This document shows positions 23,538-41,767 of a stretch of 64,000 bases of DNA, one piece after another. This DNA comes from Candidatus Bathyarchaeia archaeon. GTDB taxonomy: Archaea > Thermoproteota > Bathyarchaeia > Bathyarchaeales > Bathycorpusculaceae. Within the stretch, counting starts at the first letter, position 1, and every line of letters begins with the position of its first letter. The DNA lies in contig JBMFKI010000004.1 of NCBI GenBank assembly GCA_049972525.1, positions 15,879-79,878 on the forward strand, given 5' to 3'. Both the position numbers and the translations under genes were made by a program. The notes under the pieces are model-generated. The model ran no database searches. It worked only from the letters and a program-made list of their open reading frames with translations, and was not told where the DNA came from.

Positions 23538-24992
23538 TTACCTTTCCACGGTTTTGAGCAGTTGCTTCTTGCTGTTGTAGATTTCTATTGTCAGTGGCAT
23601 CTGCCCAACCGCAAAATGCGTGGCGCATCCGAAACATGGGTCGTAAGCCCTAAAAGCCATCTCAACCATGTTAAGTATTGTATGGTCAACTTTGTCGCCG
23701 TGTATTAAGCCCTTAGCCGCATTCCTAATAGACATGTTTATGGATGGACTGTTATTAACCGTTGCAACTATCAGGTTCACATCCTTAATAAGCGCATTCT
23801 CATCCAAAACGTAATGGTGAATCAATGTCCCCCTCGCTGCTTCAACTACACCTATGCCCTCTCCTGGTTCGCCTGGCTTGTTGCGCACATCCTTGCTCGT
23901 TATTTCAGGATCTTTGCTCAATTCTAAGGCTCTCTCGGAAGCGTAAAGCAATTCGATAAGCCTAGCCCAATGATAGGCAAGCGTTGAGTGAACTGGTTTT
24001 CCGCCAAGCGTCTTATACATGAATTCATACTCCTCCTGCGCCAGTGGCGTTGCCATGCCATCTGCAGCGTTAAGCCTTCCAAGAGGCCCAACACGGTACG
24101 CACCACTTTCCGGACCGTCAATGAAGCCTTTCCATCCAATTTTCTTCAAATATGGAAACTTAACGTAAGTCCATTCTTCAACATGTTCACCAATGTGATC
24201 AAGATAGTCTTTAGCTTCGAACTTCAAGAACTCCATGCCATGCGGGTCTACCACCCTAATCTTGCCATCGTAAAAGTTCACATTGTTGTTTTCGTCAACT
24301 AACCCCATGTAATAGGTCTTCAGCGTGTACGCGTCGCTCCTAATCAAGTCGACGTATTTGCTGTTCCCGAGAACAAGGTCGTGGAAAAGCTTGAGCGAAA
24401 ACTTTGCAAAGTTCACAGTTGAAGAAGCCATTTTCTCAATTTCGCTCCGTTCTTCTTCGCTTAATGGCTTAGAGATTCCGCCTGGTAATCCACAGACAGG
24501 ATGCGTGGCTTTTCCGCCAATTATTTCCGTTATTCTTTGACCATAAGCCCTATGCTTTATGACTTCTTTGCCGATGTCTAATCCAGCCTTTTCAATGACG
24601 CCTATAATATTTCTTTTTTCCGGAGGAGCGTCTGGTCCGACTATAAAGTCTGGTCCACCCAAATAATAGAAGTGCAACGTGTGGTCATAAATAAAATAGC
24701 CGCAGTACATGAGCTCCCTAAGTTTTTTAGCCGCTGACGGTGGATCCACGTTGAACGCTGCATCTAAGGTTTTTGTTCCAGCCATGTGATGAGCTACTGG
24801 ACATACGCCGCAGATTCTACTCGTCAAAAGTGGCATATCCTCAGCTTTTCTTCCTATGCAAAACTTTTCGAAGCCTCTAAGCTCTGGAATTTGCATGTAA
24901 GCATTTTCCACTTCGCCTTCATCGTTTAGGAATATGGCTATTTTCCCGTGTCCTTCAAGCCTTGTTATCGGGTCGATGATAACCTTTTTCAT
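23538..24992 (-). CDS. mvhA: F420-non-reducing (Mvh-type) [NiFe] hydrogenase large subunit, copy 1
   Basis: RLEGHGKI, N-terminal Ni ligands RICGVCPVAH, C-terminal DPCFGCATH followed by a cleavable extension. Confidence 0.9.
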   Translation of the reverse strand: MKKVIIDPITRLEGHGKIAIFLNDEGEVENAYMQIPELRGFEKFCIGRKAEDMPLLTSRICGVCPVAHHMAGTKTLDAAFNVDPPSAAKKLRELMYCGYFIYDHTLHFYYLGGPDFIVGPDAPPEKRNIIGVIEKAGLDIGKEVIKHRAYGQRITEIIGGKATHPVCGLPGGISKPLSEEERSEIEKMASSTVNFAKFSLKLFHDLVLGNSKYVDLIRSDAYTLKTYYMGLVDENNNVNFYDGKIRVVDPHGMEFLKFEAKDYLDHIGEHVEEWTYVKFPYLKKIGWKGFIDGPESGAYRVGPLGRLNAADGMATPLAQEEYEFMYKTLGGKPVHSTLAYHWARLIELLYASERALELSKDPEITSKDVRNKPGEPGEGIGVVEAARGTLIHHYVLDENALIKDVNLIVATVNNSPSINMSIRNAAKGLIHGDKVDHTILNMVEMAFRAYDPCFGCATHFAVGQMPLTIEIYNSKKQLLKTVER

Positions 24993-25972
24993 TTTCTCAT
25001 AATCCTCCTTCGCAGAATTGAAGCTGGCAAAGCGTACATGTAAAACGTGCCAATTGGATCCTTTATTTGGCTGATCAGTTTTTCAACTTCCTCCTCTGTG
25101 TACTTCTCTTTCTCTTCCTCTAACCCCAATATGGAAGCTAAAGCGCTTATCATCGCAGCTCCCTGTTCTGGCGAGTTCGGGCATGGTCCACCGCATCCTG
25201 TGCATGGCATGTTAGCCTTTAGGCATCTTGCACTACATCCGCCTCTCGTGGCTGGTCCCATGCATATTATTCCCTGTTCAAGCAAGCATCTTTCAGGGTC
25301 CGGTGTCTTTTCATAAACCCTATATATCTTAGAGATTTTCTTGTTTTCTTTCTTTCTTGGACATTCATCACAAACCGATTTAAGTGGTGCTAGAACAGAA
25401 CCTTTAGGTGGCAATTCGCCCTTTGCTATAACGTCTAATGCGTAAAGTGTGCGTTCAACAGCTGGTGGGCAGCCCGGAACATAATAGTCCACGTCCACTG
25501 TTTGGTCAAGTGTTCTAACTGTATCGTAAAATTCTGGAATTTCTAATTCGCCTTCTTTAACAGTTACTTTTGGTTTCGGTACAGTTCCATTTGGGTTTAC
25601 CGTTGAAAATGTTGTTTTGTAAACTTTCTCGAAAATCTCCTCTTTATTGGTCATGTTTGCCAGTCCTGGGATACCGCCAAGTTGGGCGCAAGCACCATAA
25701 GCAACTAAAAATTTTGATTTTTGCCTTAGAAGTTTAGCCATGTGTTCTTGTTCGCTGTTGCGTATTCCACCGTTGAAGAAGCACACGTCTATGTATTTGT
25801 CTGGCATTTCTTCGACGTCTTTGTATTTTATGTCCATTGCAACTGGCCAGAAAACTATGTCAGCTAATTGTAAAACGTCCAGTATTTTCTCGTTTATGTC
25901 TAAAACTGCGATTTCGCAGCCTCCACAACTTGCAGCCCAATAGAATGCGAATTTCAATTTTGCTTTGGCCAT
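24989..25972 (-). CDS. mvhG: Mvh-type [NiFe] hydrogenase small subunit, copy 1
   Basis: FYWAASCGGCEIAVLD, GCPP, and distal cluster cysteines CMGPATRGGCSARCLKANMPCTGCGGP. It overlaps mvhA by 4 nt. Confidence 0.85.
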   Translation of the reverse strand: MAKAKLKFAFYWAASCGGCEIAVLDINEKILDVLQLADIVFWPVAMDIKYKDVEEMPDKYIDVCFFNGGIRNSEQEHMAKLLRQKSKFLVAYGACAQLGGIPGLANMTNKEEIFEKVYKTTFSTVNPNGTVPKPKVTVKEGELEIPEFYDTVRTLDQTVDVDYYVPGCPPAVERTLYALDVIAKGELPPKGSVLAPLKSVCDECPRKKENKKISKIYRVYEKTPDPERCLLEQGIICMGPATRGGCSARCLKANMPCTGCGGPCPNSPEQGAAMISALASILGLEEEKEKYTEEEVEKLISQIKDPIGTFYMYALPASILRRRIMRK

Positions 25973-25973
25973 C

Positions 25974-26867
25974 TTAATTCTCTCCTTTTTGAATTTGATT
26001 TAAAAGTTCGGATGGTTTCACTCTAAGCTCGTTTAATCCAAGTTCTTCTGGTGAAAAGCCCATGGCTAAGCCTAACAGTTGAGGATAGTGCAGAACTGGT
26101 ATGCCAAACTTTTCGTTAAAGGCTCTCTCTATTCTAGGCTGGTTCATATCAAACATCATGTGGCAGAAGGGGCAAGCCGTAATTAACGCTTGAGCCTTCA
26201 CTGCCCTAACGTGGTCAAGTTTTTCTTTAGCCATCTGGAATGGAACCTCCTCGTTTACGCCGATTATTGGATTTCCGCAGCATTCAGTTTCATCCATATA
26301 GTCCAAACACTGCGCACCAGTAAGCCTAATCAAGTTTTTAAGCAGCGTTGGATTTTCTGGGTCGTCGCCGTGTTTAACATATTTTGCTGGACGAACGAGG
26401 TGGCATCCTGAATGTTGGGCTACGGAAAGATTAGTTAATGGTCTCTTAACAGAATCCCTTATCTTCTCAAAGCCAACATCCTCAGCGAGCACATGAACAA
26501 GATGTTTAACTTCTATTGTCCCTTTGAACTCCATGCCAATTTCCTTTAAATGAGCGTTCACTTCTTCCCTCAGTTTCTTATCTTCTTTCAACATTTTGTT
26601 TGTTTCATTTAAACTGCAGAAGCATCCATTACAGAGTGTTAAAATGTTCAAGTTCTGTTGTTCTGCTACACAGAGGTTGCGTGCAGCCAAAGTTATCATT
26701 AAGTCATGGTTTATTGCGTCCATTGGGTATCCACAACAGTTAAACGTTGGCATCTCGACCAATTCTACGCCTAATTTGTCGAGGACTTTTCTCGCAGAAA
26801 TTTCGTAGCTCGAAAGTCTATATGGGATAACGCATCCCAGAAATATCAGATATTTTGGTTTTGACAT
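25974..26867 (-). CDS. hdrB: Heterodisulfide reductase subunit B-like (two CCG domains), copy 1
   Basis: FLGCVIPYR...NCCGYP...CNGC and SGCH...ECCGNP...CPFC, which are two complete CCG cysteine motifs. Confidence 0.85.
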   Translation of the reverse strand: MSKPKYLIFLGCVIPYRLSSYEISARKVLDKLGVELVEMPTFNCCGYPMDAINHDLMITLAARNLCVAEQQNLNILTLCNGCFCSLNETNKMLKEDKKLREEVNAHLKEIGMEFKGTIEVKHLVHVLAEDVGFEKIRDSVKRPLTNLSVAQHSGCHLVRPAKYVKHGDDPENPTLLKNLIRLTGAQCLDYMDETECCGNPIIGVNEEVPFQMAKEKLDHVRAVKAQALITACPFCHMMFDMNQPRIERAFNEKFGIPVLHYPQLLGLAMGFSPEELGLNELRVKPSELLNQIQKGEN

Positions 26868-26868
26868 T

Positions 26869-27423
26869 TCAGCTTTTCACCTTCTCAAAAGTTTTCACGT
26901 TTTCAAGTATTTTCGAGGAACCTGTAACTTCGAAGATTTTTGCAATTTCTTCCAGATTCGGCTTTGGCAACGGTGGAAGCCCAAGCTCCATCCTCTTTTT
27001 GTGGCGTGATTCCAAAATCTCGTATACATAGCCTCCCTTTAGAAGGTTAGATGCGAGTTCCCTGTAAACTAATGGCATGGCGCCTTTTTCCTTTACTGAA
27101 AGGTTTCGCAAAACACGTACTATGCCAGCAATTTCCACTCCTTGGGGACAGTGGTCAACGCATGTGAAGCATGATGAACATAGCCACAAGGCTTTATCCA
27201 GCAAAAGCCTATCCTTCAAGCCTAATTGGACCATGCGGGCTATTCGGCGTGGTCTGTAAAACTCGCTGAATCTTGCTATGGGGCAGTCAGCCGTGCATGT
27301 GCCACATTGGAAGCAAAGCATTATTCTTTCTGCACCATGCTTCTTGCTCATTTCATACTTAAATTTCAGGTTCATTTCCTCAGCTTTTATAACACTCGGA
27401 ACATATTCCTGTGCTTCACTCAC
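26869..27423 (-). CDS. hdrC: Heterodisulfide reductase subunit C-like (2x[4Fe-4S]), copy 1
   Basis: CFQCGTCTADCP and CSSCFTCVDHCP. 184 aa, 1-nt spacing to hdrB. Confidence 0.8.
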   Translation of the reverse strand: MSEAQEYVPSVIKAEEMNLKFKYEMSKKHGAERIMLCFQCGTCTADCPIARFSEFYRPRRIARMVQLGLKDRLLLDKALWLCSSCFTCVDHCPQGVEIAGIVRVLRNLSVKEKGAMPLVYRELASNLLKGGYVYEILESRHKKRMELGLPPLPKPNLEEIAKIFEVTGSSKILENVKTFEKVKS

Positions 27424-27859
27424 CTTGTTTTCCTCCCATTTTCAAAGGGTTTGGACCAAGCTTCTTAATCTGTTCAACCATGTCTCGGACTACGGCTGCA
27501 AATTTGTCTCCCTCGCCGGCGGAAACCCATTCCAGCCGCACACGTTCGGGTTCTATCCCAAAATCTTTAAGCACTTTCTTTAATAGCGTTACTCTTCGCA
27601 AAGCCTTAAAATTACCACTAAGATAGTGGCAGTCGGATGGAAGGTGGCAGCCAGCCACCAAAACACCGTCAGCTCCATTTTTCAAGGCTTCTATTATGAA
27701 GGCTGGGTCTATTCTTCCACTACACATAACGCGGATAACACGGATGTTCGGTGGGTATTGGATTCGACTTACACCAGCCAAGTCTGCACCAGCATAGGCA
27801 CACCAGTTGCATAGAAAACCAACAATTTTTGGTTCAAAATCCGTTTTGGCTTCGCTCAT
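27416..27859 (-). CDS. mvhD: MvhD (hydrogenase delta / [2Fe-2S] adaptor subunit)
   Basis: IVGFLCNWCAYAGADLAG...VMCSGRIDP...AGCHLPSDCHY is the canonical MvhD/FlpD pattern. 147 aa. It overlaps both neighbouring genes. Confidence 0.85.
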   Translation of the reverse strand: MSEAKTDFEPKIVGFLCNWCAYAGADLAGVSRIQYPPNIRVIRVMCSGRIDPAFIIEALKNGADGVLVAGCHLPSDCHYLSGNFKALRRVTLLKKVLKDFGIEPERVRLEWVSAGEGDKFAAVVRDMVEQIKKLGPNPLKMGGKQGE

Positions 27860-30800
27860 TTGGCAACCACCTCCATCTCCTTTAAGACAGCCCTAACCTG
27901 GGCGAGAATCTCCTCAGTTGTGAAGTGCCCGAGGGTTATGGCCTTTGTTGGGCATGCTGTTCCGCAGACTCCGCAGCCCTTACACAAGGCTTCAATCACA
28001 TGGGCAACCACTTTGCCATCTTTCTCCTTCATCTCAATCGCACTGTAGGGGCATAGAAATTCACAGATTCTGCATCCACTACATAAATCTTCATCTACAC
28101 TTGCCACGATTCCTTCCATTTCAAGGGCTTTCTTCGAAAGTATTGTGGCTGCTCTTGCTGCGGCTGCACATGCTTGGGAAATGCTCTCCTCAATGTATTT
28201 TGGCGAGTGAGCCATTCCGCATAGGAAGACACCGTCCGTCTGGAAGTCCACTGGGCGAAGCTTCATGTGCGCCTCCAAGAAGAAGCCATCCTTTGTCAGT
28301 GGCACTTTTAGCATTTCGGCTATGCGCTTATTGTCTGGGTTAGGGATGGTTGCGGCACTTAAAATGACGTAGTCTGGCTCCAACTGAACCTCTTGCTTCA
28401 ATACCGGCTCGCAGAAGGAGACTTTCAGCTTTCCGCCCTCTTTTGTGACTTTTGGCTTGCTTTCGTCTGAATAGTTTATGAAGATGACGCCTTTGGCTGC
28501 TGCCTCCCGGTAGTACTCCTCCTTAAAGCCGTAACTCCTAACATCCTTGTAGAGGACGTAAACATCAACGTCTGGGTTAAGCTCCTTAATCTTCAAAGCG
28601 TTTTTGATGGCTTGCCCACAGCATATACGTGCACAGTTGGGGCGCTCCTCGTTCCTTGCGCCAACACACTGAATCATAACAACTTTTTTGGCTTTGAACT
28701 CGCCTTTGGCAATTTTCTCCTCCAACTCGTGCTGGGTCATGACTCTGGGGTCTTCGCCATACAAGTATTCTTTTGGCTTATACTCAACGGCACCAGTTGC
28801 AACAATGACTACACCATGCTCCACCAGTTTTTCCTCGCCACTGCTCAGCCTTATTTTTGATTTGAAGTTGCCGATGAAACCGCTTACCTCCATAACCTCC
28901 GCGCCTAAATAAACGTGGATAAGCTTGTTTTCCATAACAGCCCTAACAAGCCTCTTCAAGTGCTCCTGTGGGTCTTCGCCCTCAAGCAAGTAATAGATTT
29001 TCCTTAAGTGTCCGCCAAGCTCCTTTTCGCGTTCAACAAGGTGAACCTCAAAGCCTTGGTTGGCTAATTCTAGCGCTGCGGTCATCCCTGAGACCCCACC
29101 ACCAATTACGAGTCCTGCTGGAGTGACATTGACTGTCGGGTTTTTCAGCGGTTTTAGAAGCCTCGCCTTTGCGACGACGGAGCGGACGAGGTCTTTTGCT
29201 TTTTCAGTTGCCGCATCTGGCTCGTGCATGTGAACCCAGCTGCACTGGTCTCGGATGTTTGCCATCTCGAATAGGTATGGGTTTAGGCCAGCCTCTCGGA
29301 GGGTTTCTCTGAAAAGCGGTTCATGGGTTCTTGGCGTGCATGAAGCCACAACAACACGGTTTAGGTTGTACTCCTTAATCTTCTCCCTAATCCGCTTCTG
29401 GGTGTCATCTGAACAAGTGTAAAGGTTATCCTCGGCATAAACAACATTCGGAAGCTTTTTGGCGTATTCTACAACTTCTGGAACCCGGACTATTCCGCCT
29501 ATGTTTATGCCGCAGTGGCATATGAAAACGCCTATGCGGGGCTCTTCTTGGCTAACGTCCCGTTCTGGCGGATACTCCTTAACGGTTATGAGCTTGCCAC
29601 GTTCTGGGGCTATTATTGCCATGGCTTTCGCTGCGGCGCCACTCGCTTGGGCAACACTTTCCGGAATATCCTTAGGCGAGCTGAAGGCTCCGCAAACGTA
29701 TATGCCTGGCTTTGAAGTTTCTAGCGGTGTGAAGGTATTGGTTTCGCAGAAGCGGTACTTGTTGAGCTTTATGCCTAAAGCCTTGGCTAGTTTTTCCACG
29801 TCCTTTGGAGGTTGCATTCCGGTGGAGAGCACAACCATGTCGAACTCCTCAACCCGTGGAGTTTCATCCTCTCCAACATAGTGCACAAGCAAGTTGCAGG
29901 TCGCTGGGTCTTCGGTTATGCTGGCAACCCTTGAACGCACAAAATGGATGCCATACTCCTCCTGAGCCCGCTTATAGTAGGCGTCAAACTCCTTACCATA
30001 AGCCCTAATATCCATATAGAAAATCGTACAGTCCAACTTTGTTGGCACGTGTTCTTTGGCTATAATGGCTTCCTTAATGCTGTACATGCAACAAGCAGCA
30101 GAACAATAATTGTTCCCAAGCTGAGCATCCCGAGAACCAACACACTGTACAAAGGCAATTTTTCGTGGAATCTCGCCGTCAGAAGGTCTCAAAACAATCC
30201 CGCCGTAGGGTCCAGAAGCGCTCAGTATGCGTTCGAACTCTATGCTTGTCACAACATTTGCGTATCGCCCATAACCATACTCGCTCTTAAGCCGTGCATC
30301 AAAGGGTTCAAAACCGGGAGCCAAAATCACAGCGCCAACATTTAGAACAATTTCGCTGTCTTTCTGGTCATATTCAACGGCGTTCGCCTTACAAACCTCT
30401 TGACATGTTCTACAACCAATGCATTTTTCGCGGTCTATTTTGAAGCGTAGTGGAACTGCCTGTGGAAATTCGACGTAGACGGCGCTTCTGTCCGTTAACC
30501 CCTTATTGTAGGTGTCTATGGCTTCAACGGGGCATTTTTGTGCACAAAGCCCACAACCATTACATTTTTCCTCGTTTATGTAGCGGCTTCTTTTTCGAAT
30601 CTTCACTTCGAAGTTTCCAGCCTCACCGCTTAAGCCCAGCACTTCGCTGTTCGTAATTAAGGAAATGTTGGGATGCCTCCCAGCAGCAACAAGCTTAGGA
30701 GCCAAAATACACATTGAACAGTCATTTGTTGGAAAAGTCTTGTCCAATTGAGCCATAACACCGCCGATGCTGGGCGACTGGTCAACCATGTACACTTTAA

Positions 30801-30888
30801 AGCCTGAATCAGCCAAGTCTAAGGCCGCCTGTATTCCAGCAACGCCTCCGCCTACAACAAGAACTGCTCCTACTTTTCCTTCAGCCAT
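27856..30888 (-). CDS. hdrA: Tandem-fused HdrA-like flavoprotein (1010 aa, two FAD modules)
   Basis: Module 1: VVGGGVAGIQAALDLA, FPTNDCSMCIL, and an inserted ferredoxin (CNGCGLCAQKCP, CIGCRTCQEVC). Next comes the canonical HdrA N-domain IGVFICHCGINIGG...ASCTPR...DQCSW. Module 2: VIGGGVSGMTAALELA, without the inserted ferredoxin. The C-terminal ferredoxin has CSGCRICEFLCP and CKGCGVCGTACP. Confidence 0.85.
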   Translation of the reverse strand: MAEGKVGAVLVVGGGVAGIQAALDLADSGFKVYMVDQSPSIGGVMAQLDKTFPTNDCSMCILAPKLVAAGRHPNISLITNSEVLGLSGEAGNFEVKIRKRSRYINEEKCNGCGLCAQKCPVEAIDTYNKGLTDRSAVYVEFPQAVPLRFKIDREKCIGCRTCQEVCKANAVEYDQKDSEIVLNVGAVILAPGFEPFDARLKSEYGYGRYANVVTSIEFERILSASGPYGGIVLRPSDGEIPRKIAFVQCVGSRDAQLGNNYCSAACCMYSIKEAIIAKEHVPTKLDCTIFYMDIRAYGKEFDAYYKRAQEEYGIHFVRSRVASITEDPATCNLLVHYVGEDETPRVEEFDMVVLSTGMQPPKDVEKLAKALGIKLNKYRFCETNTFTPLETSKPGIYVCGAFSSPKDIPESVAQASGAAAKAMAIIAPERGKLITVKEYPPERDVSQEEPRIGVFICHCGINIGGIVRVPEVVEYAKKLPNVVYAEDNLYTCSDDTQKRIREKIKEYNLNRVVVASCTPRTHEPLFRETLREAGLNPYLFEMANIRDQCSWVHMHEPDAATEKAKDLVRSVVAKARLLKPLKNPTVNVTPAGLVIGGGVSGMTAALELANQGFEVHLVEREKELGGHLRKIYYLLEGEDPQEHLKRLVRAVMENKLIHVYLGAEVMEVSGFIGNFKSKIRLSSGEEKLVEHGVVIVATGAVEYKPKEYLYGEDPRVMTQHELEEKIAKGEFKAKKVVMIQCVGARNEERPNCARICCGQAIKNALKIKELNPDVDVYVLYKDVRSYGFKEEYYREAAAKGVIFINYSDESKPKVTKEGGKLKVSFCEPVLKQEVQLEPDYVILSAATIPNPDNKRIAEMLKVPLTKDGFFLEAHMKLRPVDFQTDGVFLCGMAHSPKYIEESISQACAAAARAATILSKKALEMEGIVASVDEDLCSGCRICEFLCPYSAIEMKEKDGKVVAHVIEALCKGCGVCGTACPTKAITLGHFTTEEILAQVRAVLKEMEVVAK

Positions 30889-30891
30889 CTT

Positions 30892-31638
30892 TTATCGCAC
30901 CTCCAAAGCCTTATACAATGGTGTGTAACCTTCAACATGGTCTAGGGCTATCATACCCTTCCGTCGCATGTTGGTTATGTGCCTCAAAACGGCAGAGGGC
31001 TTAATCCCAAGAATTTGGGCTAACTCCTTAACAGAGCGTGGCTTAACCCTTGTCAAGTAGTGAATTTTGTAGCGGATGAACTCAGCCCTAACAATATCGT
31101 CCAATAAGGCGTCAAACTCTTCTTCTGATATTTTCTCGCCGTAGGCGTTCATGAATTCGGTTAGCTCTTCTTCTCTCCCCAGTAAAACGCGGAGTCTAAA
31201 GGCTGAGGTTGCCTCCTTAGCCGCTGTGAGGTTAGCTAAAAGCTCCTCCTTCCCCAGTGGAGAGTTTCCAAGCTTCCAAACTTCTTCTGAAAACTCCTTG
31301 GCATAGTGGCTGAAGCCTTTATCCTCCAAAGGTGAAACCAGAAGAAGCTTCAACCTTTCAGGCTCAAGTTCAGCCAAAGCCAACAATTTCTTCAACATTT
31401 TAACTGCTCGTTCCGCATGGAGGTTTCCGTCGACAAAGTGGCAGTCTGGAGGCTTGCATCCGACAAGTAAGATACCATCTGCTCCGTTAATGAAGGTTTC
31501 AAGAACAAGTGCTTGGTCCATTCTCCCAACACACATAACGCGGATAATGTTAACGTTGTATGGAACACGCATTTCTTCTTCGCAGAAAGTCCAGTTGCAC
31601 ATGAAACAAACAATTTTTGGTGGGTTAGAAGACTCCAT
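30892..31638 (-). CDS. MvhD-type domain fused to a C-terminal winged-helix DNA-binding domain
   Basis: The N-terminal 120 aa align with MvhD (IVCFMCNWTFC...VMCVGRMD...VGCKPPDCHF...LEPERL). The C-terminal SVKELAQILGIKPSAVLRHITNMRRKGMIALDHVEGYTPLYKAL has a MarR/ArsR-like wHTH pattern. Confidence 0.65.
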   Translation of the reverse strand: MESSNPPKIVCFMCNWTFCEEEMRVPYNVNIIRVMCVGRMDQALVLETFINGADGILLVGCKPPDCHFVDGNLHAERAVKMLKKLLALAELEPERLKLLLVSPLEDKGFSHYAKEFSEEVWKLGNSPLGKEELLANLTAAKEATSAFRLRVLLGREEELTEFMNAYGEKISEEEFDALLDDIVRAEFIRYKIHYLTRVKPRSVKELAQILGIKPSAVLRHITNMRRKGMIALDHVEGYTPLYKALEVR

Positions 31639-31645: not shown

Positions 31646-33361
31646 TCACCTCTCCATGGCTGTTAAAACCATGGTTAGAATCTGCTCGTTGGAAAGCTTC
31701 TTCATGGTTATGGCTCTTTCTGGGCATCTTGCAGCACACAAGCCGCAGCCCTTGCAAAGCTCCTCGTCCACTTGAGCTACACCCTTCTCATTCTTTTTGA
31801 TGGCGCCAACTGGACATACGACCGCGCAGACGTTGCAGCCCACACACTTGCCCTCGTCAACAACAGCCTTATCGCCCTCGCACAAGTCCATGCTTGCGAG
31901 GCACTCGGCACACGGTCCACATCCCAAACAGCGGAAAGCCTCAAATCTTGCTTGACGCTTCAGCTTTTCAAGATATTCCCTCGCCTCCTCAAAGCTTAAG
32001 TGAGGCTTTTCCAGTGGAGGTTCGTATCTGCGCTCCTTCTTTTTAACGTAACCCCAATTCTTAACCCACGTCGTCTCCTCAATCTTCTCTTCTCTCGCGA
32101 TTCTTGGGTCTTGTCCGCGAAGGTAAAGGTGAATGGAAACCGCCGCTTTTTTGCCTGCTCCAACAGCCTCAATTATGTTTGCTGGTCCAGTAGCCATGTC
32201 GCCTCCAGCGAAAACACCCTTCACGTTTGTTTCCATAGTTGTAAAGTCAACTTTTATTGAAGGCGCTCTTGCCTCTTTGTCTAGGAGTTCTGGCGGCACA
32301 CATGACAATTCTAGAACTTGTCCAAGCGCGGGTATGACCATGTCAACCTCGTACTGATGCTCTGAAAAGCTTATTGGAATTGGCTTTCTTCTTCCGCTTT
32401 TGTCTGGCTCACCGAGCCGCATCCTTAAGCATTCAACAGCCTTAACCTTGCCATTTTCGCCTATTATCTGCTTTGGCGCAACCAAAAAGTAGAATTTAAC
32501 GCCGTCTCTTTCGGCTTCTGCTATCTCATGTGGCAATGCGGGCATTTCCTCGCGTGAGCGCCTATACAATATTATAACTTCTTTTGCACCAAGCTTCTTT
32601 GCGGTTCTCGCCGCGTCTATGGCTGTGTTTCCGCCGCCTATGACGGCAACTCGCTCTCCAACTTTTATTGGCTCGCCGAGCGATATAGCCCTCAAAAAGT
32701 CAACAGCGTTTACTACACCTTCAAGTTCTTCGCCTGGAACGTTCAATTTCATTCCCTTTTGTGTGCCAATTGCAAGGAAAATTGCCTTGTAGCCATCTTT
32801 GCGTAGGCTTTCAAGTGTTATGTCCTTTCCAAATTCCACGCCAGTCTTTATTTCCACGCTCAAATCTTTTATGTAGGCTATTTCATTCGTCACAACAAAC
32901 TTTTCAAGGCGAAAGTTTGGTATGCAGTAGCGCATCATCCCGCCAGGTTCAGCCATCCGCTCAAAAACAGTTACTGGATAACCGAGTTTTGCAAGTTCGT
33001 AGGCTGCTGTTAAGCCCGCTGGTCCAGCGCCTATTATGGCAACTTTTTCGCTGTATTTTTTGGGTATTGGTTCTGGCTTTACGCGACCTTGTTCTCTTTC
33101 AATGTCCGCCACAATTCTTTTTAGTGCACGTATTGCTACTGCTTGGTCAACGTTTGTTCTTGCACATGCGTCTTCGCATGGGCTGAAGCATACGCGTCCG
33201 CAGATTGCTGGGAATGGCATGTCCTTGCGTATGATTTCTACAGCTTCTCTGAATTTGCCTCTTTGAATTAGTGAGACGTATCCTTGAACGTTTACGTGGG
33301 CTGGGCATGCAGAGCGGCATGGCGGTAGTTTCTTTACTTTTGTTTGGTTATTATTTGTCAT
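31646..33361 (-). CDS. GltD/NfnB-like NAD(P)H-binding FAD oxidoreductase with C-terminal 2x[4Fe-4S] ferredoxin domain
   Basis: N-terminus CRSACPAHVNVQGY...ICGRVCFSPCEDAC, then [12 protein letters not shown] and VIGGGNTAIDAA. The C-terminal extension has CLGCGPCAEC, CVGCNVCAVVCP and CKGCGLCAARCP. Confidence 0.8.
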   Translation of the reverse strand: MTNNNQTKVKKLPPCRSACPAHVNVQGYVSLIQRGKFREAVEIIRKDMPFPAICGRVCFSPCEDACARTNVDQAVAIRALKRIVADIEREQGRVKPEPIPKKYSEKVAIIGAGPAGLTAAYELAKLGYPVTVFERMAEPGGMMRYCIPNFRLEKFVVTNEIAYIKDLSVEIKTGVEFGKDITLESLRKDGYKAIFLAIGTQKGMKLNVPGEELEGVVNAVDFLRAISLGEPIKVGERVAVIGGGNTAIDAARTAKKLGAKEVIILYRRSREEMPALPHEIAEAERDGVKFYFLVAPKQIIGENGKVKAVECLRMRLGEPDKSGRRKPIPISFSEHQYEVDMVIPALGQVLELSCVPPELLDKEARAPSIKVDFTTMETNVKGVFAGGDMATGPANIIEAVGAGKKAAVSIHLYLRGQDPRIAREEKIEETTWVKNWGYVKKKERRYEPPLEKPHLSFEEAREYLEKLKRQARFEAFRCLGCGPCAECLASMDLCEGDKAVVDEGKCVGCNVCAVVCPVGAIKKNEKGVAQVDEELCKGCGLCAARCPERAITMKKLSNEQILTMVLTAMER

Positions 33362-33467
33362 TTTTAAATCATCTTAGGAATAATTCTATGAGCCTCTTCG
33401 AATATATTAGTGCATTTACGCTAAAATTGACACATATTTAACATAAAAAGAAAAGGAGAAAAATAGT

Positions 33468-34058
33468 TTATTCTCGAAGTCTTCCTTCAAGTTTGCTTAC
33501 CCATTTATTGTATTCACGGGCGCCCAACAACTTTTTAAGTTCCTGCTCCAGAGTTAGCGAGTTGTTAGGCTTAATTTCCACAATCCATCCTTCGCCGTAT
33601 GGGTCTTCATTAACTAAGTTTGGCTCATTTTTCAGTTTCTCGTTCACTTTAACTATTTTGCCGCTTACTGGTGCATATAGGTCAAACATGAACATCCATG
33701 TTTCTGCAACGCCGAATGGCTCCATATGACTTATTTCCTTTCCAACAGGTTCAGTCATTATGTTCGCTATGCCTTTCAAATGTCTCTGCGCGTAATCTGA
33801 AACGCCCACTCTAATGTTTCCCTCTGGCGTCACCTGTGCCCATGTGTGCTTTGGCGTGTACAGAAGAAGCTCAGGCGTTAAAAGCAATTCCTTTCGTTTT
33901 TCCGCTGGTATCCCCTCCGCACGCATCAGGTCTTCGAGGCGTAGGCGGATTGCTTCTGAAACGAATTCTGATATGCTTCTGTAGCGCCCCGTTTTGATTG
34001 CTTCTTCAATCTGTTTTATTAGTTCTTGTCTTATGCTTACGGTTTTCCATTCAGACAT
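33468..34058 (-). CDS. Ribbon-helix-helix domain fused to a GcvH-like (lipoyl-carrier fold) domain that lacks the lipoyl lysine
   Basis: N-terminus VSIRQELIKQIEEAIKTGRYRSISEFVSEAIRLRLEDL is CopG/RHH-like. The C-terminus YTPKHTWAQV...VGVSDYAQ...GVAETWMFMFDLYAPVSGKIVKVN...EDPYGEGWIVEIK is GcvH-like. M124 (33693-33695) sits where GcvH has the lipoyl Lys (ESVK). The ATG at 34058 lies 9 nt after GGAGGA. The track ORF starts at TTG 34064. Confidence 0.65.
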   Translation of the reverse strand: MSEWKTVSIRQELIKQIEEAIKTGRYRSISEFVSEAIRLRLEDLMRAEGIPAEKRKELLLTPELLLYTPKHTWAQVTPEGNIRVGVSDYAQRHLKGIANIMTEPVGKEISHMEPFGVAETWMFMFDLYAPVSGKIVKVNEKLKNEPNLVNEDPYGEGWIVEIKPNNSLTLEQELKKLLGAREYNKWVSKLEGRLRE

Positions 34059-34064
34059 TTCCAA

Positions 34065-34183
34065 TCATCCTCCTTTACAGCTGAATTATATATAGCATAA
34101 GCGTCAAATATATATCTGGTGCATATATTTTATATTATAGTAAATACAATATATAAATTCAGACGGAAAATAATACATTGAAA
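34065..34183 (-). promoter_or_regulatory. AT-rich intergenic region with four TATATA-type elements upstream of the RHH-GcvH-like gene (candidate promoter/operator)
   Basis: ATATAT(A) cores lie near 34088, 34108, 34123 and 34150. GGAGGA is at 34068-34073 on the minus strand. At least one element is placed to act as the archaeal TATA box. Confidence 0.3.
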
Positions 34184-36475: not shown

Positions 36476-37351
36476 TTAGCCTATTTTGCTGAGCACTGGG
36501 TCTAATTTTACTTTGTGAAATTCAGGTGCAAGCTCTTTTGGATTTACACCCAAGCTTATGCTTAAAAGTTCAGCGTAGTGTATTACGGGTATATTGTATT
36601 CTTCTTTGTATGTTGTTTTTATCAGCATTTGCCCAAGGTCTAACGTTAGGAAACAGAATGGACAAAGCGTTGATATACAGTCGGCTCCAACCCTAGAGGC
36701 GTTAACGATTTTGTCTCTTGCTATGGCTAAAGCCACATCGTCAGCATAACCCCTTAAAAGACCACCGCAACATTTCAGCTTATTCCTATACCAGATGCTT
36801 TCAGCACCTATAGCCTCAACCAAATTGTCGAAGATTTTCGGGCGCTCTGGGTCGTCAAACCTTAGAAGGGCGCTTGGTCTTAGTAGGTGGCATCCAGAAA
36901 AGGCTGCAACCTTAAGTTTGCTCAGTGGCTTCGTTACGTTTTTCTTTAGGTTGTTTACGCCAATATCGTTCATCAAAACTTGGAGGTAGTGCCGCACTTC
37001 CTTGTTTCCCTTAAATTCTTTCCCAACATTTGAAAGGATTTTGTTAACCCTCTTCTTTAGTCCTTGCTTTTCTTTAAGGAGGGTGTTTGCCATCGCAAGT
37101 GATTCGAAGCATCCCGTGCACAAAGTAACGATGTTAAGATCTGCTTCTTCGGCTAGACAGATGTTGTACGCTGCAATTGCCAAGCTTGTTTCTAGGTCTA
37201 TTGACTGTAATGGTGGCGGAGCGCAGCACGTCATTTTTTCCAAATCTACGAGTTCTATTCCAAGTTTTGTTAGGGATTTTCGTGCTGCCAATTCGTAATG
37301 CGGTTGCCGCGCGGGTATCGTGCAACCCAAAAATAAAGCATAGCTCGTCAC
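36476..37351 (-). CDS. hdrB: Heterodisulfide reductase subunit B-like, copy 2 (divergent)
   Basis: FLGCTIPAR...TCCAPP...CTGC (first motif has CCA instead of CCG) and SGCH...KCCGG...CPFC. It is only distantly similar to copy 1. Confidence 0.8.
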   Translation of the reverse strand: MTSYALFLGCTIPARQPHYELAARKSLTKLGIELVDLEKMTCCAPPPLQSIDLETSLAIAAYNICLAEEADLNIVTLCTGCFESLAMANTLLKEKQGLKKRVNKILSNVGKEFKGNKEVRHYLQVLMNDIGVNNLKKNVTKPLSKLKVAAFSGCHLLRPSALLRFDDPERPKIFDNLVEAIGAESIWYRNKLKCCGGLLRGYADDVALAIARDKIVNASRVGADCISTLCPFCFLTLDLGQMLIKTTYKEEYNIPVIHYAELLSISLGVNPKELAPEFHKVKLDPVLSKIG

Positions 37352-37866
37352 TACGTCTCACCCTTCTTAAACTGGATTTTGTCGAACTCCGTTGCCGAAA
37401 GAATTTTTTTCACGGCTTCGACGCCTGCTGGCTTAAGCGGTGGCAAACCGTATTCTGCCCGCTTTTTCTCAAGGAATTTCGACATTTGAACTATGCGCCC
37501 TTCGCTTGCAAGCCCAGCTGCAAATTCCGAGTAGATGTTTGGTATGTTTCCCTCGCGGATGGCCATGTTTCTTAAGGCATAAATTACGTCGGCTACTTCG
37601 ACCTTTTGTGGACAACGTTCTTGGCAGTTATAGCACGAAGAACAGAGCCATATGGCATCGCCGGATAAGACTTCATCCCTTAACCCAAGAAGCGCCAACC
37701 TAATGACTTCTCTCGGATTGTATTTTTCTGTTATTTTTGCCACTGGGCAGCTTGCGGCGCATGTTCCACACTGATAGCATAGGGTTATCGTTTCTCCGCC
37801 AAGTCTGCTAGTAATCTCTTTGGCGAAATTCTTTGCGAATGGTTTCGTTTGCGTTTCCTCTGCCAT
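37351..37866 (-). CDS. hdrC: Heterodisulfide reductase subunit C-like, copy 2
   Basis: CYQCGTCAASCP and CSSCYNCQERCP. 1-nt overlap with hdrB copy 2. Confidence 0.8.
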   Translation of the reverse strand: MAEETQTKPFAKNFAKEITSRLGGETITLCYQCGTCAASCPVAKITEKYNPREVIRLALLGLRDEVLSGDAIWLCSSCYNCQERCPQKVEVADVIYALRNMAIREGNIPNIYSEFAAGLASEGRIVQMSKFLEKKRAEYGLPPLKPAGVEAVKKILSATEFDKIQFKKGET

Positions 37867-37888
37867 AGCGTTTATTCTCCTCTCTGGT

Positions 37889-40312: not shown

Positions 40313-41766
40313 CTTTTTATTTCTCTAATTAACTGCCTCTTATTATCGTAAATTTCAATTTCCATTGGCATTTGTCCAACCGCAAAATGCGTGGCGCATG
40401 CAAAGCATGGGTCGTAAGCCCTAAAAGCCATCTCAACCATGTTCAATACTCCATCGGTGACGCTTCCCTCTTTTATCAGCGCCTTCGCGGCATTCTTTAT
40501 TGATATGCATATGCTTGGTGCATTATGCGTTGTAGCCACGATCAGGTTAACTTTTTTGGCTAAGGCTTTCTCGTCAAGTATGTAATGGTGGATAAGTGTT
40601 CCCCTTGCAGCCTCAACTATGCCAACGCCTTCACTTGGCTTTCCAGGCTTATTCCTAATATCTTTGCTTGTTATTTCAGGGTCTGTTACAAGCTCTAATG
40701 CACGTTCAGCTGCATACAGAAGCTCTATTAGCCTAGCCCAGTGATAAGCTAAGGTATTGTGGACTGGTTTTCCGCCGAGGGTTTTATACATTCTTTCGTA
40801 TTCAGCCTGTGCCAAAGGAGTTGCCATGCCATCTGCGGCGTTAAGCCTTCCAAGAGGCCCAACACGGTAAAGCCCGCTTTGCGGTCCGCCAACCAAGCCT
40901 TTCCATCCAATTTTCTTTAAGTATGGCAGTTTCACGTACGTCCACGGTTCCACATGCTCTTCAATCACGTTTAGGTATTCTTTCGGTTTGAATTTCACAA
41001 ACTCTTTCCCATAGGGGTCAACAACACGTACATCGCCGTCATAAAAGTTTACATGGTTGTTCTTGTCAACTAAGCCCATGTAGTAGGTTTGCAACGTGTA
41101 GGCTTCGCTTTTTATAAGGTTTACATAGTCCGTGTTTTTCAGCACTATGTCGTCGAAGAGTTTTAAGCTAAATTTTCCAAATTCAAGACAGCTTCTAACC
41201 ATCTTTTCAATTTCCCGCCTCTCCTCTTCGGACAATGGTTTTGAAATGCCTCCTGGTATGCAAGCGCTAACTGGATGCGTTGCCTTCCCGCCTAGAATCT
41301 CTGTTATCCTTTGCCCGTAAGCTCTATGCTTTATGACTTTTTTGCCAATTTCTAGTCCAGCTTTTTCTATGACGCCCAAAACATTTCGCTTTTCTGGCGG
41401 TGCGTTTGGTCCTACGACGAAATCTGGTCCACCTAAATAGTAGAAGTGCAATGTGTGGTCGTAAATAAAGTAGCCACAATACATGAGTTCGCGGAGTTTT
41501 TTGGCTGTTTCTGTTGGCTCAACATTGAATGCTGCATCTAAGGCTTTTGCGCCTGCCATGTGGTGTGCAACTGGGCATACGCCGCAGATTCTCGTTGTTA
41601 TTATTGGTAGATCTTCAGCTCTTCTTCCCTCGCAGAACCTTTCGAAGCCTCTTAATTCTGGAACTTGGAAGTAAGCTTCCTCCACGTTTCCAGCGTCGTT
41701 CAAGAATATTGTTATTTTTCCGTGTCCCTCAAGCCTTGTGATTGGGTTTATAACTATCTCCTTCAT
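40309..41766 (-). CDS. mvhA: Mvh-type [NiFe] hydrogenase large subunit, copy 2
   Basis: RLEGHGKI, RICGVCPVAH, DPCFACATH. By eye it is roughly three-quarters or more identical to copy 1. Confidence 0.9.
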   Translation of the reverse strand: MKEIVINPITRLEGHGKITIFLNDAGNVEEAYFQVPELRGFERFCEGRRAEDLPIITTRICGVCPVAHHMAGAKALDAAFNVEPTETAKKLRELMYCGYFIYDHTLHFYYLGGPDFVVGPNAPPEKRNVLGVIEKAGLEIGKKVIKHRAYGQRITEILGGKATHPVSACIPGGISKPLSEEERREIEKMVRSCLEFGKFSLKLFDDIVLKNTDYVNLIKSEAYTLQTYYMGLVDKNNHVNFYDGDVRVVDPYGKEFVKFKPKEYLNVIEEHVEPWTYVKLPYLKKIGWKGLVGGPQSGLYRVGPLGRLNAADGMATPLAQAEYERMYKTLGGKPVHNTLAYHWARLIELLYAAERALELVTDPEITSKDIRNKPGKPSEGVGIVEAARGTLIHHYILDEKALAKKVNLIVATTHNAPSICISIKNAAKALIKEGSVTDGVLNMVEMAFRAYDPCFACATHFAVGQMPMEIEIYDNKRQLIREIKR

Positions 41767-41767
41767 T

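What the first reader, a model, noticed from the sequence alone, without database searches (positions are those of the whole stretch)
30892..31638. MvhD-type iron-sulfur domain fused to a winged-helix DNA-binding domain inside the hdr operon
The N-terminal 120 residues align position by position with the adjacent bona fide MvhD, and cysteines are retained at the corresponding positions (CNW..C, MC.GR, GC...DC). The C-terminal 60 residues read as a MarR/ArsR-like wHTH. The gene sits between the GltD-ferredoxin gene and tandem hdrA, with intergenic spacings of 7 and 3 nt. MvhD normally wires hydrogenase to HdrA through a [2Fe-2S] cluster. Fused to a DNA-binding domain, it could be a redox-state-sensing regulator of the bifurcating complex, or an adaptor that moonlights on DNA. 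I know of no characterised example.
Basis: partly seen in the sequence, partly recalled or inferred. Interest (0 to 1): 0.72.

Follow-up and report, generated by a model that had tools for sequence, protein, structure and literature searches.

The report
Long MvhD adaptor with docking winged-helix
The gene really does encode an iron-sulfur MvhD domain fused to a winged-helix domain, but it belongs to a widespread, already described class of extended electron-transfer adaptors (BamF type) in which the winged helix docks protein partners, so it is most likely an enzyme subunit and not a gene regulator.

Summary
ORF 30892-31638 (-) encodes 248 aa: a full FlpD/MvhD domain (E 5e-32), a conserved helical linker, and an ArsR-like winged helix. 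The winged helix passes the Pfam cut-offs and is confirmed by an AF2 model and Foldseek.

The regulator reading is not supported. The protein is one of hundreds of ~250-aa "long MvhD" proteins found in Archaea and Bacteria. In about 70 Bathyarchaeia genomes it sits in the same slot, between a GltD-like NAD(P)H oxidoreductase and a fused-dimer HdrA. In seven unrelated contexts it again lies next to a gene for a ~1000-aa HdrA-type protein. Natural polypeptides fuse HdrA, MvhD-wHTH and GltD.

In bamBC(D)E-like clusters the homologue (38% identity, E 4e-52) occupies the bamF slot. BamF was annotated "hydrogenase delta subunit; HTH motif" in 2007. A 2026 cryo-EM preprint shows its winged helix contacting BamI.

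Best reading: a [2Fe-2S] adaptor that tethers the GltD module to the tandem HdrA. This is a new member of a known kind. A PutA-like DNA role is not excluded, because the clade's winged helix is basic and the promoter carries a palindrome, but it is unlikely.

The parts
30892..31638 (-). Gene for the 248-aa long-form MvhD (MvhD domain, helical linker, wHTH); the stop codon is at 30892-30894.
   Evidence: ORF; Pfam; 681 homologues, of which the top 120 are all about 250 aa and mostly from Bathyarchaeia.
31267..31614 (-). FlpD/MvhD domain (aa 9-124). The predicted [2Fe-2S] ligands are C14, C36, C61 and C66. Clade-specific C11 and C19 are also present, and there is a 7-residue deletion after CNW.
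   Evidence: FlpD E 5.2e-32. PDB MvhD 5odc_D matches at E 2e-21. Foldseek matches 5odh_D with target-normalised TM 0.79.
31093..31266 (-). Conserved helical linker (aa 125-182) carrying the family motif AAK..FRLRVLLGRE..L.E..N.YGEK. It has no Pfam family.
   Evidence: Invariant columns A139, A140, F147, R148, R150, V151, L152, G154, R155, E156, L159, N164, Y166 and G167. The same motif is found in bacterial and archaeal long forms. Helices are predicted in the AF2 models.
30895..31092 (-). ArsR-like winged helix (aa 183-248): a long H1, H2, recognition-type H3 (PSAVLRHITNMRRKGMI) and a wing carrying the conserved motif G-x-(S/T)-P-x-Y. There is no C-terminal dimerisation helix.
   Evidence: HTH_5 at 24.5 bits (cut-off 22) and HTH_24 at 24.2 bits (cut-off 21.9). 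The AF2 model has pLDDT above 90 here. Foldseek top hits are ArsR/SmtB regulators. The net charge of about +9 was counted by hand from the sequence; the clade mean is +5.9.
31646..33361 (-). GltD/NfnB-like NAD(P)H oxidoreductase with a C-terminal 2x[4Fe-4S] ferredoxin domain (571 aa). This is the proposed electron-input module docked by the adaptor.
   Evidence: Fer4_20, Pyr_redox_2 and Fer4_21. NF009410 scores 527 bits against a cut-off of 516. It lies directly upstream of the adaptor gene in most of the 78 fetched Bathyarchaeia loci whose upstream flank is present.
27856..30888 (-). Fused-dimer (tandem) HdrA of 1010 aa, BamE-type or 'type II' HdrA.
   Evidence: Two Pyr_redox_2/FAD units plus Fer4 domains. 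It is 51% identical over 1008 aa to the tandem HdrA of an AFOR (BamB-like) cluster. The domain description of BamE is and that of type II HdrA.
27416..27859 (-). Ordinary short MvhD (147 aa).
   Evidence: FlpD E 8e-57.
23538..27423 (-). HdrC (26869-27423), HdrB (25974-26867), MvhG (24989-25972) and MvhA (23538-24992), which complete the operon.
   Evidence: The subunit names were assigned by reading the translations; these four proteins were not scanned against a family library. The gene order is conserved in the Bathyarchaeia loci.
33402..33433 (-). Promoter of the GltD/adaptor/HdrA operon: a TATA-like CTAATATAT (33402-33410) about 48 nt before the ATG, preceded by an operator-like element (33419-33433). 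In relatives this element is a covarying palindrome; the window copy (GTCAATTTTAGC) is imperfect.
   Evidence: Alignment of 50 orthologous intergenic regions. No protein has been assigned to this element.
33468..34064 (-). RHH-GcvH-like protein. It is the conserved upstream neighbour and a candidate regulator, and is listed here for context.
   Evidence: RHH_1 at residues 8-44 and GCV_H at residues 67-190. The lipoyl-lysine position is Met.

Best explanation
The protein is a stoichiometric electron-transfer subunit, not a transcription factor. It is an extended, BamF-type MvhD adaptor.

Its N-terminal MvhD domain carries a [2Fe-2S] cluster, predicted to be ligated by C14, C36, C61 and C66, and sits on the fused-dimer HdrA. 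Its C-terminal helical linker and winged helix act as a protein-docking arm. This arm holds the electron-input module in place; here that module is most likely the GltD-like NAD(P)H oxidoreductase encoded 7 nt upstream.

The inferred electron path starts at NAD(P)H and the FAD of GltD. It continues through the [4Fe-4S] clusters of GltD and its ferredoxin domain to the [2Fe-2S] cluster of the adaptor, and ends at a flavin of the tandem HdrA. The second, short MvhD in the operon wires the MvhAG hydrogenase to the other adaptor site of the pseudo-dimeric HdrA. HdrBC is the high-potential branch.

Shown here: the domain architecture, the conservation of the four Cys, the synteny, the natural fusions, and full-length homology to proteins in the bamF slot of bam-like clusters. 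Inferred: cluster binding, which partner the winged helix touches, and the direction of electron flow.
For: 1. Fixed position. In the Bathyarchaeia loci where the flanks are present, the gene lies between the GltD-like gene and the tandem hdrA. The spacings in the window are 7 and 3 nt. Where the adaptor gene is duplicated (L055, L068), the tandem hdrA is duplicated with it.

2. The family is broad. A profile search finds 89 clusters (at 50% identity) with E <= 1e-30. Many are about 245-265 aa with the same linker and wHTH. The best 120 homologues of one bacterial member are 216-286 aa, all but two of them 245-286 aa. They come from Chloroflexota, Dehalococcoidia, Deltaproteobacteria, Methanomassiliicoccales, Theionarchaea and Bathyarchaeota.

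3. Natural fusions exist: HdrA::MvhD-wHTH (P0122, 810 aa), HdrA::MvhD-wHTH::GltD (P0141, 1737 aa, and P0159), an N-terminally incomplete polypeptide that starts in the ferredoxin domain and continues as MvhD-wHTH::GltD (P0149), and MvhD-wHTH::GltD (P0189, P0190).

4. Seven independent contexts all place the long form directly beside a gene for a ~1000-aa HdrA-type protein, or within one gene of it (P0160, where it follows an HdrD-like gene). Six of the seven have a GltD-type gene nearby.

5. In AFOR(BamB)-Fer4(BamC)-[HdrD(BamD)]-tandem HdrA(BamE) clusters the long form occupies the bamF slot. It is homologous to the window protein over its full length: 35% identity, E 1e-47, and 38% identity, E 4e-52. 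The neighbouring HdrA and GltD proteins are 51% and 47% identical to the window's.

6. Literature. Gmet_2083 bamF is annotated 'hydrogenase, delta subunit; HTH mo[tif]' (PMC1924859). The BCRII cryo-EM preprint describes BamE as a fused HdrA dimer. It describes BamF as an MvhD-homologous adaptor more than 100 aa longer than other MvhD proteins, whose wHTH interfaces with BamI.

7. The net charge of the wHTH is not conserved across the family (-6 to +12). The wing motif G-x-S/T-P-x-Y and the hydrophobic core are conserved, while the exposed positions of the recognition helix vary.

8. The protein ends about 10 residues after the wing, so the C-terminal dimerisation helix of ArsR regulators is absent.
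Against: The winged helix is a bona fide ArsR-like fold and passes two Pfam HTH cut-offs. In this clade it is strongly basic: about +9 by hand count here, clade mean +5.9. A conserved, covarying palindrome lies just upstream of the TATA box of the operon that contains the gene. No structure or interaction data exist for this complex. I could not obtain the G. metallireducens BamF sequence, so the link to BamF rests on synteny, on homologues in bam-like clusters and on the papers' descriptions. The structural evidence for BamF comes from a preprint. In BamF the wHTH partner is BamI and not a GltD protein, so the partner proposed here is an extrapolation.
Confidence: 0.75

Rival explanations
1. 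It is a free-standing redox-sensing transcription factor. The MvhD-type [2Fe-2S] domain senses redox state and the ArsR-like wHTH binds an operator to control the hdr/mvh operon.
For: An ArsR-like fold and HTH scores above the Pfam cut-offs. A basic wHTH in this clade. A conserved palindrome upstream of the operon's TATA box.
Against: The gene is never found apart from a neighbouring HdrA-type gene. It is repeatedly fused into HdrA and GltD polypeptides. The spacings of 3-7 nt inside the operon fit a stoichiometric subunit. There is no ArsR-type C-terminal dimerisation helix. NCBIfam HTH_metalloreg scores 23.7 bits against a cut-off of 55. The BamF precedent points the other way. A separate RHH-domain protein is encoded directly upstream and is the more obvious regulator.
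Confidence: 0.05
2. It is a PutA-like 'trigger' subunit. It is primarily an adaptor in the complex, but in Bathyarchaeia the unassembled or oxidised protein also binds nucleic acid through its basic wHTH, for example the palindrome before its own operon.
For: The clade-specific gain in positive charge, with a mean of +5.9 against about 0 to +3 in most other lineages. A covarying palindrome directly upstream of the TATA box. A clade-specific remodelling of the Cys motif (C11, C19 and the loop deletion) that might alter the redox behaviour.
Against: There is no direct evidence. The 12-bp palindrome has half-sites only about 6 bp apart. From general knowledge, that spacing suits an RHH beta-ribbon dimer better than two wHTH recognition helices. 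The exposed H3 positions, especially residue 216, are hypervariable within the clade. The positive charge could equally match an acidic protein partner.
Confidence: 0.1
3. It is an adaptor, but the wHTH docks on something other than the GltD module, for example the second (non-bifurcating) half of the tandem HdrA or the GcvH-like protein.
For: One context (P0125) has tandem HdrA genes on both sides and no GltD within the fetched stretch. In BamF the partner is BamI and not a GltD protein. A GcvH-type gene recurs near such clusters.
Against: Six of seven contexts and almost all Bathyarchaeia loci have the GltD gene adjacent. In natural fusions the wHTH is followed in the same polypeptide by the GltD module.
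Confidence: 0.2

Closest known systems
BamF of class II benzoyl-CoA reductase (Geobacter metallireducens Gmet_2083)
   Same: An MvhD-homologous [2Fe-2S] adaptor carrying a C-terminal extension of more than 100 aa with a winged helix. It is encoded next to, and works with, a fused-dimer HdrA (BamE). The wHTH has a structural docking role. Proteins in the bamF slot of bam-like clusters are 35-38% identical to the window protein over its full length.
   Different: BamF has a selenocysteine at the near-cluster position; the window protein has T17 there, with C19 two residues further on. BamF docks BamI of a NuoEFG/HydABC-type module, whereas here the neighbour is a GltD-like protein. The output module is HdrBC plus the MvhAG hydrogenase, not a tungsten BamBC module. 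The Gmet_2083 sequence itself was not compared.
MvhD / VhuD / ElpC of methanogen Hdr complexes (PDB 5ODC, 7BKB, 8RVU)
   Same: The same fold and the same four conserved Cys in the N-terminal 125 residues. The same role as electron connector to HdrA.
   Different: Those proteins are about 130-140 aa and have no linker or wHTH. They have the CNWC motif and the AYAGADLAG loop, which is deleted here.
HdrA2-type HdrA::MvhD fusions and 'type III' HdrA with a GltD insertion (PMC12054007)
   Same: MvhD and GltD modules physically joined to HdrA. A Bathyarchaeota cluster combining GltD, HdrA and mvhADG has been proposed to couple NADH, H2 and heterodisulfide.
   Different: Here GltD, the adaptor and HdrA are separate polypeptides. 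The adaptor's wHTH arm is not mentioned in the passages of that paper read here.
ArsR/SmtB-family winged-helix regulators (e.g. SmtB, CzrA, HlyU, SqrR)
   Same: The fold of residues about 183-248 and the sequence pattern of the H2-turn-H3 region.
   Different: No alpha5 dimerisation helix. It scores below the NCBIfam family cut-off. It is embedded in an enzyme operon and fused to an Fe-S domain. No evidence of DNA binding.
PutA (RHH domain fused to a flavoenzyme; a trigger enzyme)
   Same: From general knowledge, this is a precedent for a redox enzyme that carries a DNA-binding domain and regulates its own operon. It is the model for the residual moonlighting hypothesis.
   Different: A different fold and a different enzyme. 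The analogy was not tested here.

Membership tests
MvhD/FlpD (PF02662) [2Fe-2S] adaptor domain | A full-length, significant match to the FlpD profile. | tested here: met
   E 5.2e-32; residues 9-124 cover profile positions 1-123 of 123.
MvhD/FlpD (PF02662) [2Fe-2S] adaptor domain | The four family-invariant cysteines (MvhD C17, C46, C71, C77). | tested here: met
   C14, C36, C61 and C66 are present. These columns are Cys in 248/248, 273/275, 275/275 and 272/275 sequences and are invariant in the clade. That they ligate the cluster is an inference from conservation.
MvhD/FlpD (PF02662) [2Fe-2S] adaptor domain | The fifth, near-cluster Cys or Sec (the second Cys of CxWC). | tested here: not met
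   T17 occupies that column and a Cys lies two residues on (C19), after a 7-residue loop deletion. This Cys is also absent from 38 of 248 family members, so it is not strictly defining.
MvhD/FlpD (PF02662) [2Fe-2S] adaptor domain | The fold of solved MvhD structures. | tested here: met
   Foldseek matches 5odh_D at E 7.7e-9, target-normalised TM 0.79, rmsd 2.3 A over 130 columns. The model has pLDDT 84.6.
MvhD/FlpD (PF02662) [2Fe-2S] adaptor domain | It binds a [2Fe-2S] cluster and transfers electrons to HdrA. | not testable with these tools
   This needs UV-vis or EPR spectroscopy and enzyme assays.
BamF-type extended MvhD adaptor | A C-terminal extension of 100 aa or more ending in a winged helix. 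| tested here: met
   Residues 125-248. HTH_5 and HTH_24 score above their cut-offs. The wHTH model has pLDDT above 90. Foldseek matches the ArsR-like fold.
BamF-type extended MvhD adaptor | Encoded next to a fused-dimer (BamE-type) HdrA. | tested here: met
   The 1010-aa tandem HdrA starts 3 nt downstream. It is 51% identical to the tandem HdrA of an AFOR cluster. The adjacency is conserved in the Bathyarchaeia loci and in 7 of 7 other contexts, counting one that is one gene removed.
BamF-type extended MvhD adaptor | Full-length homology to proteins in the bamF slot of bamBC(D)E-like clusters. | tested here: met
   P0313 in a Chloroflexi AFOR-Fer4-HdrD-HdrAA cluster: 38% identity over 251 columns, E 4e-52. 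P0297: 35% identity, E 1e-47.
BamF-type extended MvhD adaptor | Direct sequence or structure match to G. metallireducens BamF (Gmet_2083). | not tested
   The sequence could not be obtained. There is no BamF chain in the PDB copies searched and no Geobacter entry among the top 120 homologues. The link rests on the papers' descriptions.
BamF-type extended MvhD adaptor | The wHTH contacts a subunit of the electron-input module. | not testable with these tools
   No multimer prediction is available. It is supported only indirectly by fusions with GltD and by synteny.
ArsR/SmtB-type wHTH transcription regulators | A winged-helix fold and an HTH profile match. | tested here: met
   HTH_5 at 24.5 bits against a cut-off of 22. 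Foldseek top hits are 3cuo, 1smt, 4omz and 6cdb.
ArsR/SmtB-type wHTH transcription regulators | The family-level curated model (NCBIfam HTH_metalloreg). | tested here: not met
   23.7 bits against a cut-off of 55.
ArsR/SmtB-type wHTH transcription regulators | A homodimer built from N- and C-terminal helices (alpha1/alpha5). | tested here: not met
   The protein ends about 10 residues after the wing and has no alpha5. Dimerisation itself was not testable.
ArsR/SmtB-type wHTH transcription regulators | Sequence-specific DNA binding. | not testable with these tools
   A conserved palindrome exists upstream of the operon but cannot be assigned to this protein.

The most novel reading that the evidence does not exclude
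In Bathyarchaeia the docking winged helix of this adaptor has become strongly basic and the Cys motif around the cluster has been remodelled. The subunit could therefore double as a PutA-like trigger protein. When it is unassembled, or when its cluster is oxidised, it might bind the covarying palindrome that lies directly upstream of the TATA box of its own operon. That would couple the state of the bifurcating complex to transcription.
Probability: 0.08. Interest if true: 0.75.

Novelty: new member of a known kind. Interest (0 to 1): 0.3.

Why it matters
As a regulator it would have been a new type of redox sensor, but the evidence points to an ordinary, poorly annotated enzyme subunit.

The useful outcomes are practical. 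First, databases label hundreds of ~250-aa 'hydrogenase iron-sulfur subunit' proteins without noting the docking arm. The trio of long MvhD, fused-dimer HdrA and GltD-like protein is a recurring electron-input module shared by benzoyl-CoA-reductase-like clusters and by archaeal Mvh/Hdr clusters.

Second, the Bathyarchaeia operon predicts an asymmetric HdrA pseudo-dimer served by two different adaptors, one for an NAD(P)H module and one for a hydrogenase. That is a concrete target for structural work on how these uncultured archaea balance H2, NAD(P)H, ferredoxin and a disulfide.

Tried and rejected
- A Foldseek search of the full-length model against the PDB returned only short MvhD chains for the N-terminal half. 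BamF is in neither the PDB sequence copy nor the structure copy.
- I tried to reach G. metallireducens BamF through a homologue search seeded with a bacterial long form. No Geobacter entry appeared among the 120 listed hits.
- The papers opened for the identity of the MvhD cluster ligands gave no residue numbers, so the ligands were inferred from conservation.
- The sigma-70 promoter and terminator scan showed no enrichment over shuffles, and it is not appropriate for an archaeon.
- A search for inverted repeats in 33350-33480 found none with seeds of 6 or more. The repeats found upstream of the GcvH-like gene are AT-rich and of low information. The operator-like element became visible only by comparing 50 orthologous intergenic regions.
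- A profile of the C-terminal module against PDB sequences gave only weak ArsR/MarR hits with E of 0.02 or worse, plus one spurious ketol-acid reductoisomerase hit.
- The idea that the wHTH is a decaying relic was rejected. The domain has many invariant residues and is modelled with pLDDT above 90.
Full report
**What is there**

The window carries a minus-strand operon. In order it encodes:
- an RHH-GcvH-like protein (33468-34064);
- a GltD-like NAD(P)H oxidoreductase with a C-terminal 2x[4Fe-4S] domain (31646-33361);
- the 248-aa protein in question (30892-31638);
- a 1010-aa tandem HdrA (27856-30888);
- a normal 147-aa MvhD (27416-27859);
- HdrC, HdrB, MvhG and MvhA (23538-27423).

The last four names come from reading the translations; those four proteins were not scanned against a family library.

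Pfam finds a complete FlpD/MvhD domain at residues 9-124 (E 5.2e-32). It also finds two HTH families just above their curated cut-offs at residues 193-231: HTH_5 at 24.5 bits against 22, and HTH_24 at 24.2 bits against 21.9. The NCBIfam ArsR/SmtB model stays far below its cut-off, at 23.7 bits against 55.

The full-length AF2 model is confident (pLDDT 84.6, pTM 0.84). Its N-terminal half superposes on solved MvhD chains, with target-normalised TM 0.79. Residues 128-248 modelled alone give a canonical winged helix with pLDDT above 90. The nearest solved folds are ArsR/SmtB regulators.

The correction concerns the alignment with MvhD. There is a 7-residue deletion after CNW, and the second Cys of CNWC is replaced by T17, with C19 two residues further on. 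The four Cys that are essentially invariant across about 250-275 MvhD-type sequences are retained as C14, C36, C61 and C66. The second Cys of CNWC is dispensable in 38 of 248 family members. The preprint describes a non-ligand cysteine near the MvhD cluster, which is a selenocysteine in BamF. I take this dispensable Cys to be that residue.

**How widespread it is**

The protein has 681 homologues. The best 120 are all about 210-260 aa, 60-94% identical, and nearly all from Bathyarchaeia, so the window is from a member of that class. A scan of one genome per species found full-length orthologues at 45-96% identity in 77 genomes. Where the flanks are present, the order is RHH-GcvH, GltD, adaptor, tandem HdrA, MvhD, HdrC, HdrB, MvhG, MvhA. 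In two genomes (L055, L068) the adaptor and the tandem hdrA are duplicated together.

A profile search over 1.84 billion representative proteins shows that the architecture is not confined to this clade. There are 89 clusters at E <= 1e-30. Many are 245-265-aa proteins with a canonical CNWCSYAGADLAG MvhD domain followed by the same linker motif (RLRxLxGK...GNVYGEK) and wHTH.

A search seeded with one bacterial member returned 120 best hits of 216-286 aa, all but two of them 245-286 aa. They come from Chloroflexota, Dehalococcoidia, Deltaproteobacteria, Methanomassiliicoccales, Theionarchaea and Bathyarchaeota. The wHTH signal recurs in these proteins at varying strength, for example HTH_5 at 35 bits in P0293.

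**What it travels with**

Natural polypeptides join the parts:
- HdrA::MvhD-wHTH (P0122, 810 aa);
- HdrA::MvhD-wHTH::GltD (P0141, 1737 aa, and P0159);
- an N-terminally incomplete polypeptide that starts in the ferredoxin domain and continues as MvhD-wHTH::GltD (P0149);
- MvhD-wHTH::GltD (P0189 from Chloroflexota, and P0190).

I looked at seven independent genomic contexts. In all of them the long MvhD lies directly beside a gene for a ~1000-aa HdrA-type protein, or within one gene of it (P0160, where it follows an HdrD-like gene). In six there is a GltD-type gene nearby. The Methanomassiliicoccales context mirrors the window: GltD-HdrA fusion, long MvhD, tandem HdrA, short MvhD, then an FrhB-type donor.

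Two contexts are class II benzoyl-CoA-reductase-like clusters: AFOR (BamB) - Fer4 (BamC) - [HdrD-like (BamD)] - tandem HdrA (BamE) - long MvhD - GltD. The proteins in the bamF slot are homologous to the window protein over its whole length: 35% identity with E 1e-47, and 38% identity with E 4e-52. The neighbouring tandem HdrA and GltD proteins are 51% and 47% identical to the window's.

**Comparison with what is known**

Butler et al. [quoted passage not shown] The 2026 cryo-EM preprint on the Geobacter BCRII complex (10.64898/2026.04.10.717634) makes three relevant statements:
- BamE is a fused HdrA dimer.
- BamF is an MvhD-homologous adaptor more than 100 residues longer than other MvhD proteins.
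- The winged helix-turn-helix of BamF interfaces with BamI and so links the input module to the HdrA-type core.

That is the architecture and the gene neighbourhood found here. A survey of HdrA types describes tandem ('type II') HdrA. It also describes a Bathyarchaeota HdrA-GltD cluster with mvhADG, proposed to couple NADH, H2 and the heterodisulfide (PMC12054007).

**Most likely mechanism**

The protein is a stoichiometric [2Fe-2S] adaptor. Its MvhD domain sits on the tandem HdrA. Its linker and winged helix form a docking arm for the electron-input module, most likely the adjacent GltD-like protein.

A fused HdrA pseudo-dimer offers two non-equivalent adaptor sites. The operon encodes two different adaptors: the long one next to GltD, and the short one next to HdrCB and MvhGA. 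I infer that one site is wired to NAD(P)H and the other to H2.

These points are inferences. Cluster binding, the identity of the partner and the direction of electron flow are not shown.

**What keeps a DNA role alive, and why I rate it low**

The winged helix of this clade is basic. I count about +9 for the window protein by hand; the clade mean is +5.9. In other lineages the charge ranges from -6 to +12 and mostly lies around 0 to +3.

Comparing 50 orthologous intergenic regions shows a conserved TATA box about 50 nt before the GltD start. It is preceded by a palindrome whose two halves covary: GTTAAGCTTAAC, GCGTTAAACTTAACGC, AAGTCAAGTTTGACTT and GCTAAGTTTAGC. The window copy, GTCAATTTTAGC, is imperfect.

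This element cannot be assigned to the adaptor:
- An RHH-domain protein is encoded immediately upstream in nearly every genome.
- The half-sites are only about 6 bp apart. From general knowledge, that suits an RHH ribbon better than a pair of wHTH recognition helices.
- The adaptor lacks the ArsR C-terminal dimerisation helix.
- The exposed recognition-helix positions vary within the clade.

Across the whole family the conserved features of the domain are its hydrophobic core and a wing motif, G-x-S/T-P-x-Y. They are conserved even where the domain is acidic, which fits a conserved protein contact. I give the pure-regulator reading 0.05 and a PutA-like dual role about 0.1.

**Verdict**

This is a new member, in Bathyarchaeia Mvh/Hdr operons, of the BamF-type extended MvhD adaptors. 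It has a clade-specific remodelling of the near-cluster Cys motif. Interest is modest (0.3). The value lies in better annotation and in pointing to a two-adaptor tandem-HdrA complex worth solving.

Noticed in passing
window 33468-34064 (-): The conserved upstream neighbour is a ribbon-helix-helix domain (residues 8-44) fused to a GcvH-like domain (residues 67-190). Its lipoyl-lysine position is Met (AETWMFMFDLYAP aligned with ESTKSVSDLYAP), so it cannot be lipoylated. Some relatives carry two tandem copies (for example L059, L064, L068, L070). It is a candidate regulator or sensor of the hdr operon.
   Followed up: partly
window 33402-33433 (-); loci L001-L073, GcvH-GltD intergenic region: A conserved archaeal promoter: a TATA-like CTTAATATAT about 50 nt before the GltD start, preceded by a palindrome whose halves covary between genomes (GTTAAGCTTAAC, GTCAAGCTTGAT, GCGTTAAACTTAACGC, GCTAAGTTTAGC), plus an upstream direct repeat of ATGTTA-type. 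The binding protein is unknown.
   Followed up: partly
window 34137-34150 (-); upstream of the RHH-GcvH gene in the loci: A different conserved palindrome, ATAGTAnnTACTAT (the window copy is ATTGTATTTACTAT), lies among several TATA-like boxes upstream of the RHH-GcvH-like gene. This suggests a second operator distinct from the one before GltD.
   Followed up: no
window 36476-42703 (-): A second, more conventional Mvh/Hdr cluster: MvhG-like (41768-42703), [NiFe] large subunit (40309-41766), an 807-aa HdrA::MvhD fusion (37889-40312), and ORFs read as HdrC (37351-37866) and HdrB (36476-37351) from their translations. The genome therefore has both a fused short-MvhD system and the long-adaptor system.
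   Followed up: partly
loci L055, L068 (adaptor + tandem hdrA duplicated); L048, L076 (tandem hdrA + short mvhD duplicated): Some Bathyarchaeia carry two consecutive adaptor-plus-tandem-HdrA pairs in front of a single hdrCB-mvhGA set. This suggests modular expansion of the bifurcating core.
   Followed up: no
proteins P0130, P0132, P0152, P0166, P0172, P0173, P0175, P0194, P0199, P0209: Many database entries for long MvhD proteins begin at 'MCSGRVDP', which is profile position 34. Their 90% clusters also contain full-length versions of 257-263 aa. The pattern fits N-terminal truncation by gene callers at an in-frame UGA (selenocysteine in CNWU), as reported for BamF and VhuD. The DNA was not checked.
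   Followed up: partly
proteins P0156, P0204, P0211, P0245, P0253, P0254, P0267: Proteins of about 110-125 aa match only the linker and wHTH module. They could be fragments on short contigs or genuinely split genes, in which the docking arm would be a separate polypeptide.
   Followed up: no
loci L079-L081, L086, L087: In the bacterial clusters the GltD-like gene is followed by a conserved 296-306-aa protein with no precomputed Pfam hit. In L080 this protein shows weak similarity to part of HdrA (24.5% identity over 269 aa). It may be a further subunit of the input module that Bathyarchaeia lack or have replaced by the ferredoxin domain of GltD.
   Followed up: no
window 42833-45643 (-): A 936-aa fusion of an ADP-forming acyl-CoA synthetase-like region (CoA_binding, Succ_CoA_lig, ATP-grasp_5) with a C-terminal GNAT acetyltransferase. 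From general knowledge this resembles Pat-type protein acetyltransferases. It lies directly beside the second hydrogenase cluster.
   Followed up: no
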